Shown piece after piece: positions 44,044-49,754 of a stretch of DNA of 64,000 nt. Below the pieces are notes generated by a model, which was given only the letters and a program-made list of their open reading frames with translations, did not search any database and was not told where the DNA came from. Within the stretch, counting starts at the first letter, position 1; every line of letters begins with the position of its first letter. The stretch comes from Candidatus Latescibacterota bacterium. GTDB lineage: Bacteria; Latescibacterota; UBA2968; UBA8231. The position numbers and the translations under genes are program-made. The DNA lies in the NCBI GenBank assembly GCA_965217585.1, contig OZ244561.1:1184001-1248000 (forward strand), read 5' to 3'.

Positions 44044-44071
44044 ATTAACGAAAATTTACTTTATCGGTAGT
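44044..44071 (+). other. Putative tyrosine-recombinase site A (11-6-11)
   Basis: ATTAACGAAAA TTTACT TTATCGGTAGT (A). Confidence 0.7.
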
Positions 44072-44145
44072 ATTATTGCGGGCGGCCTGACGGGGATATT
44101 CAGATCGCTTCTCAACGCCCTTCTTCAAGGAGGAAAGAGACGACT

Positions 44146-45285
44146 TTGATGTGGGGAATACTCGTTGCGGCTTTGATCTTTGGGAGCCTAGGGGCCAACG
44201 CCAATGAGGGCCGTACGCCGCTGCACCTTGCGGCGGTGATGAATGATTTTGCGACGGCCAAGGTCTTGCTTAGGGCGGGAGCCGATGTCAACGCCAAAAC
44301 TGATGAGGGCGCTACGCCGCTGCACCTTGCGGCGATGAGGAATGCTTCTGAGACGGCTGAGGTCTTGCTTAGGGCGGGAGCCGATGCCAACGTCAACGCC
44401 AATGAGGGCAACACGCCGCTACACCTTGCGGCGATGTGGGATGCTTCTGAGACGGCCAAGGTCTTGCTTAAGGCGGGAGCCGATGCCAACGTCAAAGACA
44501 GTGAGGGCACTACGCCGCTGCACGTTGCGGCGATGGAGAATGCTGTTGCGACGGCTGAGGTCTTGCTTAAGACGGGAGCCGATGTCAACGCCAAAAACAA
44601 TGAAGGCTATACGCCGCTGCACGTTGCGGCGATGTGGGATGCTTCTGCGATGGCTGAGGTCTTGCTCAAAGAGGGAGCCGATGTCAATGCCAACGCCAAT
44701 AGGGACACTACGCCGCTGCACGTTGCGGCGGTGAAGAATGCTTCTGAGACCGCCGAGGTTTTGCTTAAGGCGGGAGCCGATGTCAACGCCAAAACCAATG
44801 AAGGCTATACGCCGCTGCACGTTGTGGCGGAGAAGAATGCTTTTGCGACGGCTGAGGTCTTGCTCAAGGCGGGAGCCGATGTCAACGCCAACGCCAATGA
44901 GGGCGTTACGCCGCTGTACATTGCGGCGATGGAGAATGCTGTTGCGACAGCCAAGGTTTTGCTTAAGGCGGGAGCCGATGTCAACGCCACCAACGCCAAT
45001 GAGGGCGCTACGCCGCTGCACATTACGACGGTGGAGAATGCTGTTGCGACAGCCAAGGTTTTGCTTAAGGCGGGAGCCGATGTCAACGCCAAAACCAATG
45101 AAGGCTATACGCCGCTGCACGTTGTGGCGGTGAAGAATGCTGTTGCGATGGCTGAGGTCTTGCTCAAGGCGGGAGCCGATGCCAACGCCAAAGACAATGA
45201 GGGCAACACGCCGCTGCACCTTGCGGCGATGGTGAATGCTTCTGAGACCGCCGAGGTCTTGGGTCGTTACGGTGCCCGACGCTGA
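44146..45285 (+). CDS. Secreted ankyrin-repeat protein, 11 repeats
   Basis: AAGGAGG RBS; signal peptide; 11 TPLH/TPLY...LLKAGADVNA units encoded as near-identical 99-bp DNA repeats (one of 102 bp). Confidence 0.97.
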   Translation: MMWGILVAALIFGSLGANANEGRTPLHLAAVMNDFATAKVLLRAGADVNAKTDEGATPLHLAAMRNASETAEVLLRAGADANVNANEGNTPLHLAAMWDASETAKVLLKAGADANVKDSEGTTPLHVAAMENAVATAEVLLKTGADVNAKNNEGYTPLHVAAMWDASAMAEVLLKEGADVNANANRDTTPLHVAAVKNASETAEVLLKAGADVNAKTNEGYTPLHVVAEKNAFATAEVLLKAGADVNANANEGVTPLYIAAMENAVATAKVLLKAGADVNATNANEGATPLHITTVENAVATAKVLLKAGADVNAKTNEGYTPLHVVAVKNAVAMAEVLLKAGADANAKDNEGNTPLHLAAMVNASETAEVLGRYGARR

Positions 45286-45365
45286 ATCCTCAACTTACTT
45301 AACGGCTCTCAATTCGACTTCCGCGACCTCTCCTTGTGTGGATAGTGCTGTAATTATCAAGTCGA

Positions 45366-45393
45366 ATCCTAATCAAGCGGGCTTATCGGTAGT
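45366..45393 (+). other. Putative tyrosine-recombinase site B
   Basis: ATCCTAATCAA GCGGGC TTATCGGTAGT (A); left arm degenerate. Confidence 0.6.
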
Positions 45394-45650
45394 AAAAAAT
45401 CTGCGCCTACCCACAAACCAGCTCCGGGGCCTTGCTTCCGCCTCGCGCTTCGTCGATCTCGACCAGGCCGCACCCAAAGGAATGGGCCAACCGCCTCAGC
45501 CATTAGAGGCGATTACAGGGCCTTGACAGGGTTTAAACGGGACCGGGAAATTCTCGGCAGCACATCACCACCAACAAATCAAGGCGAAGCTGGTGCCGAT
45601 GGATCGTCGGCATCGACTTCGCTGGCAATTTGCCTTGAAAGGATTGCAGT

Positions 45651-45881
45651 ATGCAGAAATCTAACCCCGGAGCGGCTGCCTGCCTTGCTATCTTTGCCCA
45701 GACGCTCAGCGAAACAGAGCGTCAAAAATTACGGGAAAATTGCGAGTTACTTTTCCGTCTATTAGGCGAGGGCGCTGCCGAGGGCGCTACCGAGGGAGAC
45801 GACAACGAAGCGGCCGAGACCCTAATCCTTGCCGGACGCTACCTTGAGCTATTGGAGCAGAAAAAATCTAAGTATTGGTAA
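45651..45881 (+). CDS. Small hypothetical protein between sites B and C
   Basis: AAAGGA RBS; 76 aa; ends 28 bp before site C. Confidence 0.5.
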   Translation: MQKSNPGAAACLAIFAQTLSETERQKLRENCELLFRLLGEGAAEGATEGDDNEAAETLILAGRYLELLEQKKSKYW

Positions 45882-45909
45882 GAGGTTCAGGGCCGTTAGG
45901 GGCGCTCAG

Positions 45910-47296: not shown

Positions 47297-47858
47297 GCTA
47301 CCTCCTCTTGTGGTTTGGGTGAGCAGACAATCAACGTCATCCCCAAAATTCTCGCCAGACGTGCCTTTTCAGCGCCGGGGCTTCTACTCCTTCAACGGGC
47401 TGGTGATTTCTTGGCCTTTGGGCTGTTGCTGTTGGTTGCAGTTCAGCAATGGGCGGGTTGCTGGCGGGGTCTGCTTCGCTCTCTCTCGCTGCTTCGCTCT
47501 CTCGGCCTACTGGTAAAGGTCAATCGGGTGTCAAAGCAATGGGGGGCAAGCGGCCATTGCGTGAACGTAGCAACCGGGAGACGGCGGTAAAGGGGACGTG
47601 ATGGGAGGGGGCATGTCGTCGGGCTTGAATAGGCCAGCAAGGGGGGGCTGTTTGGGTCTTGGGGGCTGGCCTATGGATAATCAGGGGATGGGGTGGGATG
47701 CTGCCGGGAAAGTCCGCGTGGTTCAGCACGTAGCGCTAGCGCGTCCTCGGATAATCCACTAGGCGAGGCCCTCAATCTCCGGTGGATCCTTTGAGGCGGG
47801 CGACGGCCCCCAGCCCGGCGGCTTGGCCTCGGCTGTATCGGCCCGGCATATCCGGCGA

Positions 47859-48077
47859 TTACCAGCGACCGGCGTTTTGCAGCTCGGCCAAGCCAGCCAG
47901 CTTGTGGATGACCTCACAGGCTGATACGATGTTTTTGGAGTCGCAGCCGTTGAAAGTCAGCTTAGGCTTGGAGACTGGTCCCTCGTAGGAGAACCACCCG
48001 ACGATGATGTTGGACAAATCTTGTCCCTTGCGCTGCGCGCCGAGACCTAAGTATCCTTTGGAAGCTGCCAACCGCAT
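47859..48077 (-). CDS. Small hypothetical protein
   Basis: 72-aa ORF with a purine-rich upstream tract; no recognisable motif. Confidence 0.35.
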   Translation of the reverse strand: MRLAASKGYLGLGAQRKGQDLSNIIVGWFSYEGPVSKPKLTFNGCDSKNIVSACEVIHKLAGLAELQNAGRW

Positions 48078-48546
48078 CTCCTTTTTCCAGTAGGTGCCAG
48101 CCTGCCAACCGGCTGAATCTGTTGCAAAAATAACGACTTAGGCTTGGCCAATAGGCCCTTGCCAACCCCCTGTTGGTAAGCTGCCAACCCCCAGGATGGC
48201 AATCAATGCCCAAATGTGGAGCCAAAAGAACGCGCAATCGCGGTCTTTGCCAAACCGATGTTCCCCGCGAAGGCAACCGCTATAAAAAACACAGCGAGGA
48301 AGCTCAGCAAGCGCGATTAAAGAAGGCTTAGGCCGAAGTCGATCCAACCCCCGAGATCGTCACCGACATAGACGCTTCCAGCATCCAGGAACTATCTGAC
48401 CGGCGCGAGCCACCGCCCCCTGCCGCAGGTCGGTCAAATCGAAGATCCGCACCTGCTGCCTCGGCGACCTGAAAGCGCGAGTCGTGGCTGGTTCGTAAAA
48501 GCACCCCGGCGCTTGTGCCAACGAACGGGCCGAGTTACCCCCGGCC

Positions 48547-49473
48547 TTATTCCCGGTAGCGGTGCCGAGCAATCGCCCCTTGCCCGGCCGCTTGGCCCCT
48601 CACGTAGTGGGCGGGCATCCTAGCCGTTTCCCAGCGCCCCGCTTGCATCAATTCCGTTGTGCTGGCCCCCGCTTGTGCCAAATCTTGAGCGGTGCCGATC
48701 CGCAGGGAGTGCCCGCTGGCCCCTTCAATGCCAGCCGCGACGGCCGCGGCCTTGATTGCGAGCCTTGCCCCGTTGTCGGTAATGCGCTCTTGCCCGAGGC
48801 GGTCCCCCCGGCGCATACGACGGAACAGCGCCCCCGCGCTGAAACTGGCCACCTCGAGGTACGCGTGAAGAGCGGCAACGGTAGGCTGGCCGAGGAACAG
48901 CACGGCCCCGGCCCCTTCCTGGTCTGTTTTGGAGCTTGGCACCGTCAACCGGCCCGTGCCGTCCCCTTCAAAAGCGAGGTGCTGCACGTCGATTGCCACG
49001 GTTTCGCTTATCCGCAGCATCCCGTCCGACATCACCCGGAACAGCGCCGCATCACGCAGCCCGGCTAAGGTGCCCAGCTTGGCAGCGGTTCGGGCGATTA
49101 TCTCCACATCGACATAGCGCAGCGCGGCGACCTGGCCTCGGCCCCGGCCTTTGCCTTCTCGGCGGATCCCCGCCAGGGTGCGCGTGGTCAGCGGCCCGAC
49201 GACCGAGGGGCGACCTTCCAGCTTTTCCACGAAGCGCACGGCTTGAACGACGATCGCAAGGCTGGCCGGAGAAAGCCCGGCCCCGTGCCCTTGGGCCAAG
49301 TAATCAGCCAGGGTGGCGTCTGTGGGCGGCTGGCCGCCCAAGGCATCGGACAGGCGAGAAAGCGCGGCGCTGTATGCTTTGGCGGTGTTGGGCGCAACGC
49401 TGGCCGCTATCAGCTTTTGAGTATCCACGGCGACGGCTGGCGCGGTGTGGGTCGTGGTGGCGAGTGAGTGCAT
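48547..49473 (-). CDS. Cre-like tyrosine recombinase
   Basis: N-terminal APNTAKAY; RDAAL...GMLRISE (R), SKTD (K), HSLR (H-x-x-R), GRW (Cre-type W), AHY (Y). Confidence 0.95.
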   Translation of the reverse strand: MHSLATTTHTAPAVAVDTQKLIAASVAPNTAKAYSAALSRLSDALGGQPPTDATLADYLAQGHGAGLSPASLAIVVQAVRFVEKLEGRPSVVGPLTTRTLAGIRREGKGRGRGQVAALRYVDVEIIARTAAKLGTLAGLRDAALFRVMSDGMLRISETVAIDVQHLAFEGDGTGRLTVPSSKTDQEGAGAVLFLGQPTVAALHAYLEVASFSAGALFRRMRRGDRLGQERITDNGARLAIKAAAVAAGIEGASGHSLRIGTAQDLAQAGASTTELMQAGRWETARMPAHYVRGQAAGQGAIARHRYRE

Positions 49474-49501
49474 AGCGTCCCCTTGGGCAAAAGGCCAACT
49501 A

Positions 49502-49529
49502 ACTTCGACTAATGGTAACTATCGGTGAT
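49502..49529 (+). other. Putative tyrosine-recombinase site E, just upstream of the recombinase gene
   Basis: ACTTCGACTAA TGGTAA CTATCGGTGAT (A); left arm 9/11 identical to site C; 28 bp from the recombinase ATG. Confidence 0.72.
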
Positions 49530-49754
49530 ATTAAAGGCTTTTTCGATACCTTTTTGGTGCTTTCCGACCAAAAAGGTATGATTGACCTCGGCGAGCCTAG
49601 TGCGCCTCGAATCCCGCTGCCGCAGCCAGCTATCGCAAGCGCCAAGTCGCTGCCTAATTTTCAAACGAATACACTACCGAATTTTCAGGCAGGCGGAACT
49701 CGTCTTAAACTTCCGCAACTGCAATCGGAACCTTGAGCAATTAGAATTGGGCTT

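What the first reader, a model, noticed from the sequence alone, without database searches (positions are those of the whole stretch)
44044..49530. Cre-like recombinase with an array of co-oriented 28-bp sites separating single-gene cassettes (integron-like, no attC)
Seen: five intergenic sites in the same orientation with 11-6-11 geometry. A 44044 ATTAACGAAAA-TTTACT-TTATCGGTAGT; B 45366 ATCCTAATCAA-GCGGGC-TTATCGGTAGT; C 45910 ATTTGGACTAA-TTCACT-TTATCGGGAGT; D 46493 ACTTCCGAGAA-CCGGCA-TTATCGGGAGT; E 49502 ACTTCGACTAA-TGGTAA-CTATCGGTGAT. Each is followed by A, and each left arm starts with A and ends with AA. They partition the island into ankyrin (A-B), small ORF (B-C), lipoprotein (C-D) and UDG plus recombinase (D-E). 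Site E lies 28 bp upstream of a recombinase with an intact R-K-H-R-W-Y set. Established: 11-6-11 inverted arms are the geometry of dif/Xer-type core sites, and recombinase sites often sit beside their own gene. Inference: a gene capture and shuffling platform run by this Cre-like enzyme (or by host XerCD as pdif-like modules), distinct from IntI/attC integrons.
Basis: partly seen in the sequence, partly recalled or inferred. Interest (0 to 1): 0.9.

Follow-up and report, generated by a model that had tools for sequence, protein, structure and literature searches.

The report
Tyrosine-recombinase sites joining island gene modules
Four matching 28-base sites between small genes in a 7-kb genomic island belong to a widespread family of recombinase target sites, so the island looks like a patchwork put together by site-specific recombination, not a proven working gene-capture machine.

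Summary
Sites A-D are real and far from chance. Four of the genome's six exact TTATCGGKAGTA 12-mers lie co-oriented within 2.5 kb. Site E is no better than chance. The sites are not canonical dif and not attC. Their arms match a family with consensus ACTnCCGATAA-N6-TTATCGGnAGT. That family occurs as perfect palindromes in over 120 stretches of DNA from many phyla. In 26 of 80 fetched loci a Xer- or Cre-like tyrosine recombinase gene lies beside the palindrome. Nine of the 80 also have an inverted partner with the same spacer, the layout of an invertible switch. The characterised relative is Rhizobium etli IntA with its attA/attD sites. In this genus the same arms flank a conserved chromosomal Xer-like gene near the terminus, and a promoter switch whose two spacers co-vary. 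The window's sites mark joints between gene modules in a 7.06-kb insert at a hypervariable slot. Homology breakpoints fall on site A in two other genomes and in contigs from three metagenome runs. The four spacers differ, no partner sites exist, and no other genome of the genus has such an array. I therefore read it as a recombination-built mosaic. An active integron-like platform is unproven.

The parts
42697..49754 (.). 7.06-kb island, absent from the same slot in six other genomes of the genus
   Evidence: backbone homology ends at query 4196 (window 42695) and resumes at PhyH; in G011, G108, G010, G012, G021 and G105 the two flanks are about 88 bp apart, with only a PhyH 3' remnant between them. 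G+C is 50-58% over the cassettes against 59.5% for the genome.
42804..42831 (+). Candidate site Z, ACTAATGATAA-CACGTT-TACTAATTCGT: good left arm, degenerate right arm
   Evidence: Left arm 8 of 10, total 12 of 20, so not significant as a motif. Contigs of runs X8 and X10 begin to match at 42818, inside its spacer, with 32 unlike letters before.
43035..43970 (+). 311-aa ORF with no family match; module between Z and A
   Evidence: No Pfam or NCBIfam hit. A 93% identical second copy lies at G000 1736611-1737524. The X8 contig matches 42818-44071 only.
44044..44071 (+). Site A, ATTAACGAAAA-TTTACT-TTATCGGTAGT
   Evidence: Score 17 of 20. Homology to the ankyrin module of G002 and G014, which lies at another locus, starts at 44060/44061. 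The X13 contig matches from 44054. The X8 and X10 contigs stop matching at 44071 and 44073.
44146..45285 (+). Ankyrin-repeat protein, 379 aa
   Evidence: PF00023, E 5e-85, 11 stretches. Its leader is shared with G002, G014, G106 and G004.
45366..45393 (+). Site B, ATCCTAATCAA-GCGGGC-TTATCGGTAGT
   Evidence: Right arm 10 of 10, left arm 3 of 10. Exact 12-mer.
45651..45881 (+). 76-aa ORF, no family match
45910..45937 (+). Site C, ATTTGGACTAA-TTCACT-TTATCGGGAGT
   Evidence: Right arm 10 of 10, left arm 5 of 10. Its spacer differs from A's at 1 of 6 positions, and it is a direct repeat of A 1866 bp away.
45962..46417 (+). 151-aa putative lipoprotein with a weak GOLD-like match
   Evidence: PF01105, E 7.4e-6. 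The homologue in G110 (61% identity) lies in a core context without sites.
46493..46520 (+). Site D, ACTTCCGAGAA-CCGGCA-TTATCGGGAGT, a near-palindrome
   Evidence: Score 19 of 20, the best in the genome. By my reading, 25 of 28 letters match the palindrome beside the Xer-like gene in L036.
46535..47296 (-). 253-aa UDG-superfamily-like protein
   Evidence: PF03167, E 1.7e-4, below the cut-off. Family-4 UDG models match at about E 4e-3.
47766..47927 (-). Dead 3' fragment of a second Cre-like recombinase gene
   Evidence: 47% identity to residues 260-304, with 1 stop; 88% DNA identity to the 3' end of the G001 homologue.
48547..49473 (-). Intact 308-aa Cre-like tyrosine recombinase
   Evidence: PF00589, E 6.9e-14. 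Only weak Xer models match. The best PDB matches are Cre, E 5e-10. R154, K182, H255, R258, W281 and Y290 are present. G+C is about 67%.
49502..49529 (+).
   Evidence: Score 14 of 20: 184 such 28-mers in the genome against 218 for the reversed control.
49653..49678 (+). 26-bp box shared 100% with the G001 locus, where it overlaps a site next to a homologous recombinase island
   Evidence: It is unique in G000.

Best explanation
A-D, and perhaps Z, are core sites of an IntA-like family of tyrosine recombinases. The family consensus is ACTnCCGATAA-N6-TTATCGGnAGT. Each window site is of the 'one good arm' kind: a perfect right arm, a variable spacer and a partly degenerate left arm that keeps A1 and A10-A11. 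Partner sites of working invertible switches of this family have the same form. In the window the sites mark the joints between single-gene modules of a 7-kb island that sits in a hypervariable chromosomal slot. The most likely history is that modules were joined, exchanged or inserted by site-specific recombination at these sites. The enzyme would be the conserved chromosomal Xer-like recombinase whose own gene is preceded by a perfect palindrome with the same arms, the island's Cre-like recombinase, or both. Shown: the family exists, lies beside recombinase genes, forms same-spacer inverted pairs, and marks homology breakpoints. Inferred: which enzyme acts, and that the array was built by recombination. 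With four different spacers the array is probably mostly frozen. Only A and C, whose spacers differ at 1 of 6 positions, look able to recombine. That event would release a 1866-bp circle carrying the ankyrin gene and the small ORF.
For: Clustering: 4 of the 6 exact 12-mers in 7.32 Mb lie within 2.5 kb on one strand. Family: the pattern CCGATAA-N6-TTATCGG occurs in 17 of 132 genomes of the class, against 0 for the reversed control. The 20-position palindrome occurs in over 120 stretches across phyla. In 26 of 80 fetched loci a BLAST-linked tyrosine recombinase lies within 1.2 kb. Nine of 80 loci have a same-spacer partner in inverted orientation, against 2 in direct orientation. Characterised relative: the IntA att site TCCGATAA-7-TTATCGGA supports integration and excision and tolerates one changed base between attA and attD (passages). 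In p42a the site lies 109 bp upstream of the integrase gene, and IntA is 27% identical to both recombinases here. In the genus, the palindrome lies beside a Xer-like gene found in 28 of 30 genomes. It is within about 2 kb of the cumulative G-C skew peak. The promoter switch shows three spacer variants across four genomes, each matched by its partner. Breakpoints: G002 and G014 homology starts at 44060/44061. Run contigs break at 44054, 44071, 44073 and 42818. A second slot in the window ends at a site, 61383-61410, with homology resuming at 61411. The island itself is an insert.
Against: The spacers of A, B, C and D all differ, and no same-spacer partner exists elsewhere in the genome. None of 30 other genomes of the genus shows a cluster of exact 12-mers. 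At its 3' end the ankyrin homology with G002 stops about 25 bp after the stop codon, not at the next site. Lipoprotein and UDG-like homologues elsewhere have no sites. There are no direct repeats at the island ends and no site in the empty slot. Homologues of the Cre-like gene have the palindrome beside them only in one other genus, in 5 genomes that are probably one lineage. No excised circle or inversion was seen, and only assembled contigs were available.
Confidence: 0.5

Rival explanations
1. An active integron-like capture platform. The island's Cre-like recombinase inserts and excises single-gene circles at the conserved right arm by a single strand exchange that does not need matching spacers.
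For: The units are co-oriented single genes, each starting with the conserved arm. The G002/G014 breakpoint lies exactly at the spacer/right-arm border although the spacers differ, TTTACT against ACGGGT. An intact Cre-like gene lies in the island. Homologues in another genus sit beside a perfect palindrome with the same core.
Against: Site E is at chance level. There is no attI-like primary site and no array in 30 other genomes of the genus. The array lies 3' of the recombinase gene, past a dead copy. Cassette homologues elsewhere lack sites. No circles were seen.
Confidence: 0.15
2. Fossil switches. Each gene once had its own invertible promoter of this family. Loss of the invertible segment and the second site, for example by deletion between the two directly repeated good arms, left one site in front of each gene.
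For: The family's best documented use in this genus is a promoter switch in front of a signal-peptide protein, and in G000 that switch carries deletions in both sites. By my reading of the sequence, the ankyrin protein and the lipoprotein both have N-terminal signal sequences. Elsewhere in G000, sites of the form degenerate arm-spacer-good arm also lie just upstream of genes.
Against: In the switch the good arm faces away from the gene. In A-C it faces the gene. This reading does not by itself explain the breakpoints at site A or the module mosaic.
Confidence: 0.17
3. A regulatory operator or promoter element. The conserved 12-mer is bound by a protein, possibly the recombinase itself, to control the downstream genes, and no DNA is exchanged.
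For: A, B and C lie 78, 258 and 40 bp upstream of co-oriented genes. The palindrome beside the Xer-like gene overlaps a TATAAA-like stretch.
Against: No sigma-70-like promoter was called over any site. D lies at the 3' ends of convergent genes. The geometry, the co-varying spacers and the IntA precedent point to recombination. Homology breaks at the site edges.
Confidence: 0.1
4. pdif-like modules moved by the host XerC/XerD.
For: The ATAA-N6-TTAT inner core is shared with dif sites in general (recalled). G000 has a XerD above its curated cut-off and a XerC-like gene.
Against: The genus's canonical dif candidate, TATAA-N6-TTATGTCAAC, is found in 31 of 31 genomes and has different arms. Both arms of the family here are alike, which suits a single enzyme. 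All sites are direct repeats, whereas pdif modules alternate in orientation (recalled from the Acinetobacter literature; abstracts seen).
Confidence: 0.05

Closest known systems
IntA with attA/attD of Rhizobium etli CFN42 (plasmid p42a / pSym cointegration)
   Same: The arms are nearly identical: ACTTCCGATAA ... TTATCGGAGGT in p42a. The site lies just upstream of the recombinase gene. The site is a palindrome with a divergent centre, the reaction runs both ways, and one changed base between attA and attD is tolerated (passages of PMC4928290). IntA is 27% identical to both recombinases here.
   Different: The centre is 7 bp, not 6. IntA has 382 aa, against 308 and 324. Only two full sites on two plasmids are known, with no arrays, no half-degenerate sites and no switches. 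The primary paper (PMC3807439) was not held.
Tyrosine-recombinase invertible switches (invertons), such as fimS with FimB/FimE (recalled)
   Same: Within this site family, 9 of 80 loci pair a palindrome with an inverted same-spacer partner 130-400 bp away. In the genus, one such pair brackets a promoter-like stretch in front of a signal-peptide gene.
   Different: A-D are direct repeats with unlike spacers, separated by whole genes.
Acinetobacter pdif / dif modules
   Same: 28-bp 11-6-11 sites bound small accessory-gene modules that form linear multi-module islands (abstracts; outline of PMC12907356).
   Different: Those sites are XerC/XerD sites that alternate in orientation (recalled). Here the arms are not those of the canonical dif candidate, both arms are of one kind, and all sites point the same way.
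Integrons (IntI, attI, attC)
   Same: A co-oriented array of single-gene units that share a short conserved motif at each joint.
   Different: The integron-integrase model TIGR02249 does not match the window recombinase, and the generic XerA/integron model scores 40 bits against a cut-off of 220. The sites are short double-strand 11-6-11 sites upstream of genes, not folded attC sites downstream of them. The recombinase is not divergent from the array.
Cre/loxP of phage P1
   Same: Cre chains are the best solved relatives of the window enzyme (E 5e-10), with a matching C-terminal GHSxRxG...W...Y region. A palindromic site lies beside the gene in homologues.
   Different: loxP is 13-8-13 with other arms (recalled). 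Identity is low, and Pfam detects no N-terminal domain.

Membership tests
IntA-like att site family (ACTnCCGATAA-N6-TTATCGGnAGT) | Two inverted 11-bp arms with the inner core CCGATAA / TTATCGG | tested here: met
   D scores 19 of 20 and A scores 17 of 20. B and C have a perfect right arm only. E scores 14 of 20, which is chance level.
IntA-like att site family (ACTnCCGATAA-N6-TTATCGGnAGT) | A tyrosine recombinase gene next to a full site | tested here: inconclusive
   D is 2 kb from the intact Cre-like gene and about 1.2 kb from the dead copy. The site placed beside the gene (E) is not significant. The feature is met elsewhere: in 26 of 80 loci, at the genus Xer-like gene and in p42a.
IntA-like att site family (ACTnCCGATAA-N6-TTATCGGnAGT) | Recombination between two sites with the same or nearly the same centre | not testable with these tools
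   Only A and C are near-identical, at 5 of 6 spacer positions. No raw reads were available, only contigs.
Integron (IntI/attC) | An integron integrase | tested here: not met
   TIGR02249 is absent from the matches. NF040815 scores 40.2 bits against a cut-off of 220.
Integron (IntI/attC) | attC sites 3' of the cassettes and a divergent intI with attI | tested here: not met
   The sites are 28-bp core sites 5' of the genes. The recombinase lies downstream of the array on the other strand.
Xer/dif and pdif modules | Arms equal to the host's XerC/XerD dif arms | tested here: not met
   The canonical dif candidate is ATGTCTTATAA-GGATTT-TTATGTCAACC at G000 6412482. Its pattern occurs in 31 of 31 genomes of the genus. 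Its arms differ from those of A-D.
Xer/dif and pdif modules | Module-flanking sites alternate in orientation | tested here: not met
   A-D are all on the + strand. The defining feature itself is recalled.
Inverton (invertible promoter switch) | Two sites in inverted orientation with the same spacer, 0.1-0.5 kb apart | tested here: not met
   A-D have no inverted same-spacer partner anywhere in G000. The feature is met for other members of the site family.
Cre-like tyrosine recombinase | Catalytic set R-K-H-R-W-Y and a Cre-like C-terminal region | tested here: met
   R154, K182, H255, R258, W281 and Y290 are present. They align with Cre over residues 55-303, E 5e-10.

The most novel reading that the evidence does not exclude
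The 28-bp sites belong to a pan-bacterial site family that has gone largely undescribed. It is served by very diverse Xer-, Cre- and IntA-like enzymes. Cells use it in two ways: as same-spacer inverted pairs that flip promoters, and as 'one good arm' joints at which single-gene circles are captured and released by an exchange at the conserved arm that does not need matching spacers. The window would then hold a working cassette array of a new, non-IntI kind.
Probability: 0.15. Interest if true: 0.85.

Novelty: new variant of a known kind. Interest (0 to 1): 0.6.

Why it matters
If the reading holds, one short DNA site links three things usually treated apart: a plasmid cointegration enzyme (IntA), promoter-flipping switches, and the modular build of genomic islands. 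It does so across many phyla. It also gives a concrete, testable site and enzyme pair for a poorly known lineage. Records with the same site context are titled Candidatus Latescibacterota. A palindromic site shared by recombinases only about 27% identical to each other could also be useful as a set of related genome-engineering tools. For the window itself, the claim to test is simple: do A and C recombine, and which of the two enzymes does it?

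Tried and rejected
Chromosomal dif. I first took the palindrome beside the Xer-like gene for dif, because it lies within 2 kb of the G-C skew peak. 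I dropped this when a site with a classical XerD-like arm, 4.4 kb away, proved to be present in 31 of 31 genomes of the genus.

Planctomycetes. An early guess at the phylum led me to Kono et al. 2011 (PMC3025954, passages). It is not relevant, because record titles point to Latescibacterota.

Island att repeats. The two island ends share no direct repeat of 9 bp or more. The empty slot holds no site.

Cassette mobility through other genes. Lipoprotein and UDG-like homologues in 132 genomes of the class are not flanked by sites. The 44 metagenome loci with distant relatives of the 311-aa ORF (about 47% identity) hold no site in 169,460 bp. Decayed pieces in G001 have no sites.

Relaxed motif scan. 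With one mismatch allowed in the right arm there are 130 hits, against 239 for the reversed control. Single near-matches therefore mean nothing.

Promoter scan. No sigma-70-like site lies over A-D; this is a weak test.

Runs. No RNA holder was listed. Depth differs between modules in X8, X10 and X13, and the B-C part has almost no cover there. These are contig depths and gaps, so I do not use them as evidence. The listed joints (15 shown, 21 not shown) include none between two sites.

Literature. A search for the arm sequences found only primers. A search for both half-cores plus 'recombinase' found the IntA paper. A search for invertons with tyrosine recombinase motifs found 2 papers, neither on this site. 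I therefore found no description of the family beyond IntA in these searches. The primary IntA paper was not held.

Full report
OBSERVATION. A-D share a perfect right arm plus the next base, TTATCGG[GT]AGTA. In the window the 11-mer with up to one mismatch occurs 6 times against 1.04 expected, and 0 of 100 shuffles reach 6. The window is G000:C1:1184001-1248000, in a single 7,323,734-base contig of 59.5% G+C. That genome holds 11 exact 11-mers and 6 exact 12-mers. Four of the 12-mers lie at window 44061, 45383, 45927 and 46510, all on the + strand. By my own rough arithmetic, four of six falling in one 2.5-kb stretch on one strand has a chance of order 1e-10. I also scored whole 28-mers against the family consensus found later (20 specified positions). 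D scores 19, A 17, C 15, E 14, B 13 and the extra candidate Z 12. Only four sites in the genome reach 17, against none for the reversed control. At 14 or more there are 184 hits against 218 in the control. So A and D are full sites. B and C are half sites, backed by their perfect arm, their place in the cluster, and the retained A1 and A10-A11 of the left arm. E cannot be told from chance.

THE GENES. The units are as described. They are an ankyrin protein (PF00023, E 5e-85), a 76-aa ORF without matches, and a 151-aa putative lipoprotein with a weak GOLD-like match. On the other strand lie a UDG-superfamily-like protein, which scores below its cut-off, and a 308-aa tyrosine recombinase. The recombinase matches only PF00589 (E 6.9e-14) and, far below cut-off, Xer models. 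The integron-integrase model does not match. Its best solved relatives are Cre chains (E 5e-10, residues 55-303). R154, K182, H255, R258, W281 and Y290 are in place. 'Cre-like' is therefore fair. Between the UDG-like gene and this recombinase lies the dead 3' end of a second such gene, at about 47766-47927. A 63% identical paralogue lies at 3.36 Mb.

THE ISLAND. I compared 17 kb around the finding with 30 other genomes of the genus. The backbone runs to window 42695 and resumes at the PhyH gene. In six genomes (G011, G108, G010, G012, G021, G105) the flanks are about 88 bp apart, with only a remnant of the PhyH 3' end between them. The nearest relative, G001, has a different insert of about 25 kb there. 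The island is therefore window 42697-49754, in a slot that varies across the genus. Its ends carry no direct repeat of 9 bp or more, and the empty slot holds no site.

WHAT THE SITES ARE. Homologues of the Cre-like gene in another genus (47-49% identity) have a perfect palindrome, ATTTCCGATAA-GTGGAT-TTATCGGAAAT, about 170 bp upstream. About 230 bp further lies a second site with the same spacer in inverted orientation and a degenerate outer arm. The core CCGATAA-N6-TTATCGG occurs in 17 of 132 genomes of the class, and the reversed control in none. In the window's own genus the palindromes carry exactly the arms of A-D, ATACT[AC]CCGATAA-N6-TTATCGG[GT]AGTAT. They fall at two orthologous places.

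The first place lies between mutL and a 326-333-aa recombinase with a SAM-like N-terminal domain. G000 has this locus at 6.4169 Mb with slightly changed arms. The gene is single-copy, in 28 of 30 genomes of the genus and 59 of 75 of the family. The site lies within 2 kb of the peak of cumulative G-C (6,415,000 at 5-kb steps). I first read it as dif. However, a site with a classical XerD-type arm, ATGTCTTATAA-GGATTT-TTATGTCAACC, lies 4.4 kb away, and its pattern is present in 31 of 31 genomes. G000 also encodes a XerD above its curated cut-off and a XerC-like protein. In all it has five PF00589 genes. The site family here is therefore not the canonical dif. It is the site next to a third, conserved Xer-like enzyme.

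The second orthologous place is a switch. A palindrome, about 300 bp with a promoter-like TTGCA-17-TATATT stretch, and then ACTCCCGATAA-spacer-TTGGAAGGAGT lie directly before the start of a signal-peptide protein gene. The two spacers are reverse complements of each other in each genome and change together between genomes. They read TATCCC/GGGATA in G008 and G014, TGCCCC/GGGGCA in G004, and TACCCC/GGGGTA in G013. In G000 both sites carry small deletions.

THE FAMILY IS WIDE AND HAS A CHARACTERISED MEMBER. By my own estimate from the collection size, chance would give about 0.5. The records come from many phyla: Asaia, Rickettsiella, Piscirickettsia, Lachnospiraceae, Victivallaceae, Rhodothermales, Acidobacteriota, Bacteroidota and others. 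Those with this genus's sequence context are titled Candidatus Latescibacterota. Of the 80 loci fetched, 26 have a tyrosine recombinase from one BLAST-linked cluster within 1.2 kb. By tblastn, 16 have a relative of the Xer-like protein and 8 a relative of the Cre-like protein. Ten of these recombinases were scanned with NCBIfam. Nine gave only Xer-type matches far below the cut-offs, and one gave none. A second site with the same spacer lies within 800 bp in inverted orientation in 9 loci and in direct orientation in 2, over 115,865 bp of flanks examined. A literature search for both half-cores led to Rhizobium etli IntA. [quoted passage not shown] IntA integrates and excises, and attA and attD recombine equally well although they differ by one base (PMC4928290, passages). 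In plasmid p42a the site reads ACTTCCGATAA-GCAGTAC-TTATCGGAGGT. It lies 109 bp upstream of the 382-aa integrase gene. IntA is 27% identical to the Xer-like protein (E 1e-11) and to the Cre-like protein (E 1e-9). The arms of A-D are thus arms of a proven recombinase target.

DO THE SITES MARK RECOMBINATION JOINTS HERE? Several observations say yes. The ankyrin module recurs in G002 and G014 at another place, after a 497-aa gene and a small ORF. Homology to the window starts at 44060/44061, the border of spacer and right arm. The left arm and spacer are unrelated, and a second site-like sequence (TCATCGGGAGT) follows the G002 gene. The leader is also present in G106 and G004, where the good arm lies inverted directly before it. 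Contigs of public runs from different studies show other joints. One X8 contig (1376 letters) matches 42818-44071 only. X10 contigs start to match at 42818 and stop at 44073, with 834 unlike letters beyond. An X13 contig matches from 44054, with 27 unlike letters before. All these joints fall within or at the edges of site A or of candidate Z. In a second variable slot of the window (55431-61410 compared with G002), a site at 61383-61410 ends exactly where homology resumes, at 61411.

Other observations say no or are silent. The ankyrin homology with G002 ends about 25 bp after the stop codon, not at site B. Homologues of the lipoprotein and UDG-like genes elsewhere are not flanked by sites. 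No other genome of the genus has a cluster of exact 12-mers. Across the 31 genomes there are 58 matches against 18 for the reversed control, but elsewhere they are scattered. The spacers of A-D (TTTACT, GCGGGC, TTCACT, CCGGCA) have no partner in the genome apart from A with C.

READING. The sites are genuine members of an IntA-like site family; I put this at about 0.85. 'One good arm' sites are the normal form of working partner sites in this family. The uneven conservation in A-C is therefore what function or origin by recombination predicts, not what random decay predicts. The array most likely records joining and exchange of modules at such sites (about 0.5). Whether it still works is open. 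By analogy with attA x attD, A and C might recombine. The host Xer-like enzyme is the better-supported actor, because the arms are identical to its own palindrome and the gene is conserved. The island's Cre-like enzyme remains possible. A fossil-switch origin (0.17) and a purely regulatory role (0.10) are the main alternatives. The pdif/XerCD reading is unlikely (0.05).

LIMITS. The primary IntA paper was not held. Features of loxP, pdif orientation, fimS and Cre residue numbering are recalled, not tested.

Noticed in passing
G000:C1:6412482-6412509 (outside the window): Candidate canonical dif, ATGTCTTATAA-GGATTT-TTATGTCAACC, near the G-C skew peak. Its pattern is present in 31 of 31 genomes of the genus. 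G022, G012, G108 and G110 have a second, similar site (TATAA-N6-TTATGTAAAC) about 3-4 kb away, as if an element had inserted at dif.
   Followed up: partly
G000:C1:512459-512781 (outside the window); L033, L034, L037, L039: An invertible-switch layout in front of a 325-aa signal-peptide protein from a family with more than 30 paralogues in G000. The two spacers co-vary across genomes. In G000 the palindrome has a 4-bp spacer and the partner is shortened, as if the switch were locked.
   Followed up: partly
L040 (G007) compared with L035, L036 and G000 6416930: The 6-bp spacer of the palindrome beside the Xer-like gene is the exact reverse complement in G007 (TGCCTG read towards the gene) of that in G019, G022 and G000 (CAGGCA). 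The right flank is the same. The left flank varies between genomes: mutL, an AT-rich stretch, or a hairpin.
   Followed up: no
window 49653-49678 and L018 6433-6458: A 26-bp box is 100% identical between the window and G001. In G001 it overlaps a site (TTTGAAAATTA-GGGGAA-TTATCGGTAGT) at the far end of an island with a homologous recombinase. It is unique in G000.
   Followed up: partly
window 49546-49579: A perfect 12-bp inverted repeat, ATACCTTTTTGG / CCAAAAAGGTAT, with a 10-base loop, just beyond site E and upstream of the recombinase gene.
   Followed up: no
window 55431-61410: A second variable slot compared with G002, where the ankyrin module sits. It holds two more sites, at 60242-60269 (-) just before a small ORF and at 61383-61410 (+) at the exact end of the variable part.
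   Followed up: partly
window 46529-46545: Directly after D lies a degenerate second copy of spacer plus right arm (CCGGTG-CTATCGGGTCT, 12 of 17 letters like D's). It overlaps the stop of the UDG-like ORF.
   Followed up: no
window 43031; G000:C1:1736611-1737524: The 311-aa ORF has a 93% identical second copy without flanking sites. The window copy has extra bases near its start. Contigs of X8 and X10 carry a 15-base insertion at 43031.
   Followed up: no
L193 (6485-base contig): Two perfect palindromes, with spacers TTCCAA and TCGGAA, lie at positions 58 and 6401, at both ends of the contig, as if bounding one 6.3-kb unit.
   Followed up: no
L144, L174, L182, L190, L202 (Asaia records): A 373-384-aa recombinase gene ends 17-18 bp from the palindrome. 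One Asaia genome has sites on two contigs. IntA of R. etli is the same length, 382 aa.
   Followed up: no
G000:C1:7274511-7274570 (outside the window): Two sites lie back to back, 4 bases apart (TTATCGGAATC GGAT ACTTCCGATAA).
   Followed up: no
window 49755-50555 compared with L043-L048: The PhyH-family dioxygenase gene is deleted in six genomes of the genus, leaving about 85 bp of its 3' end.
   Followed up: yes
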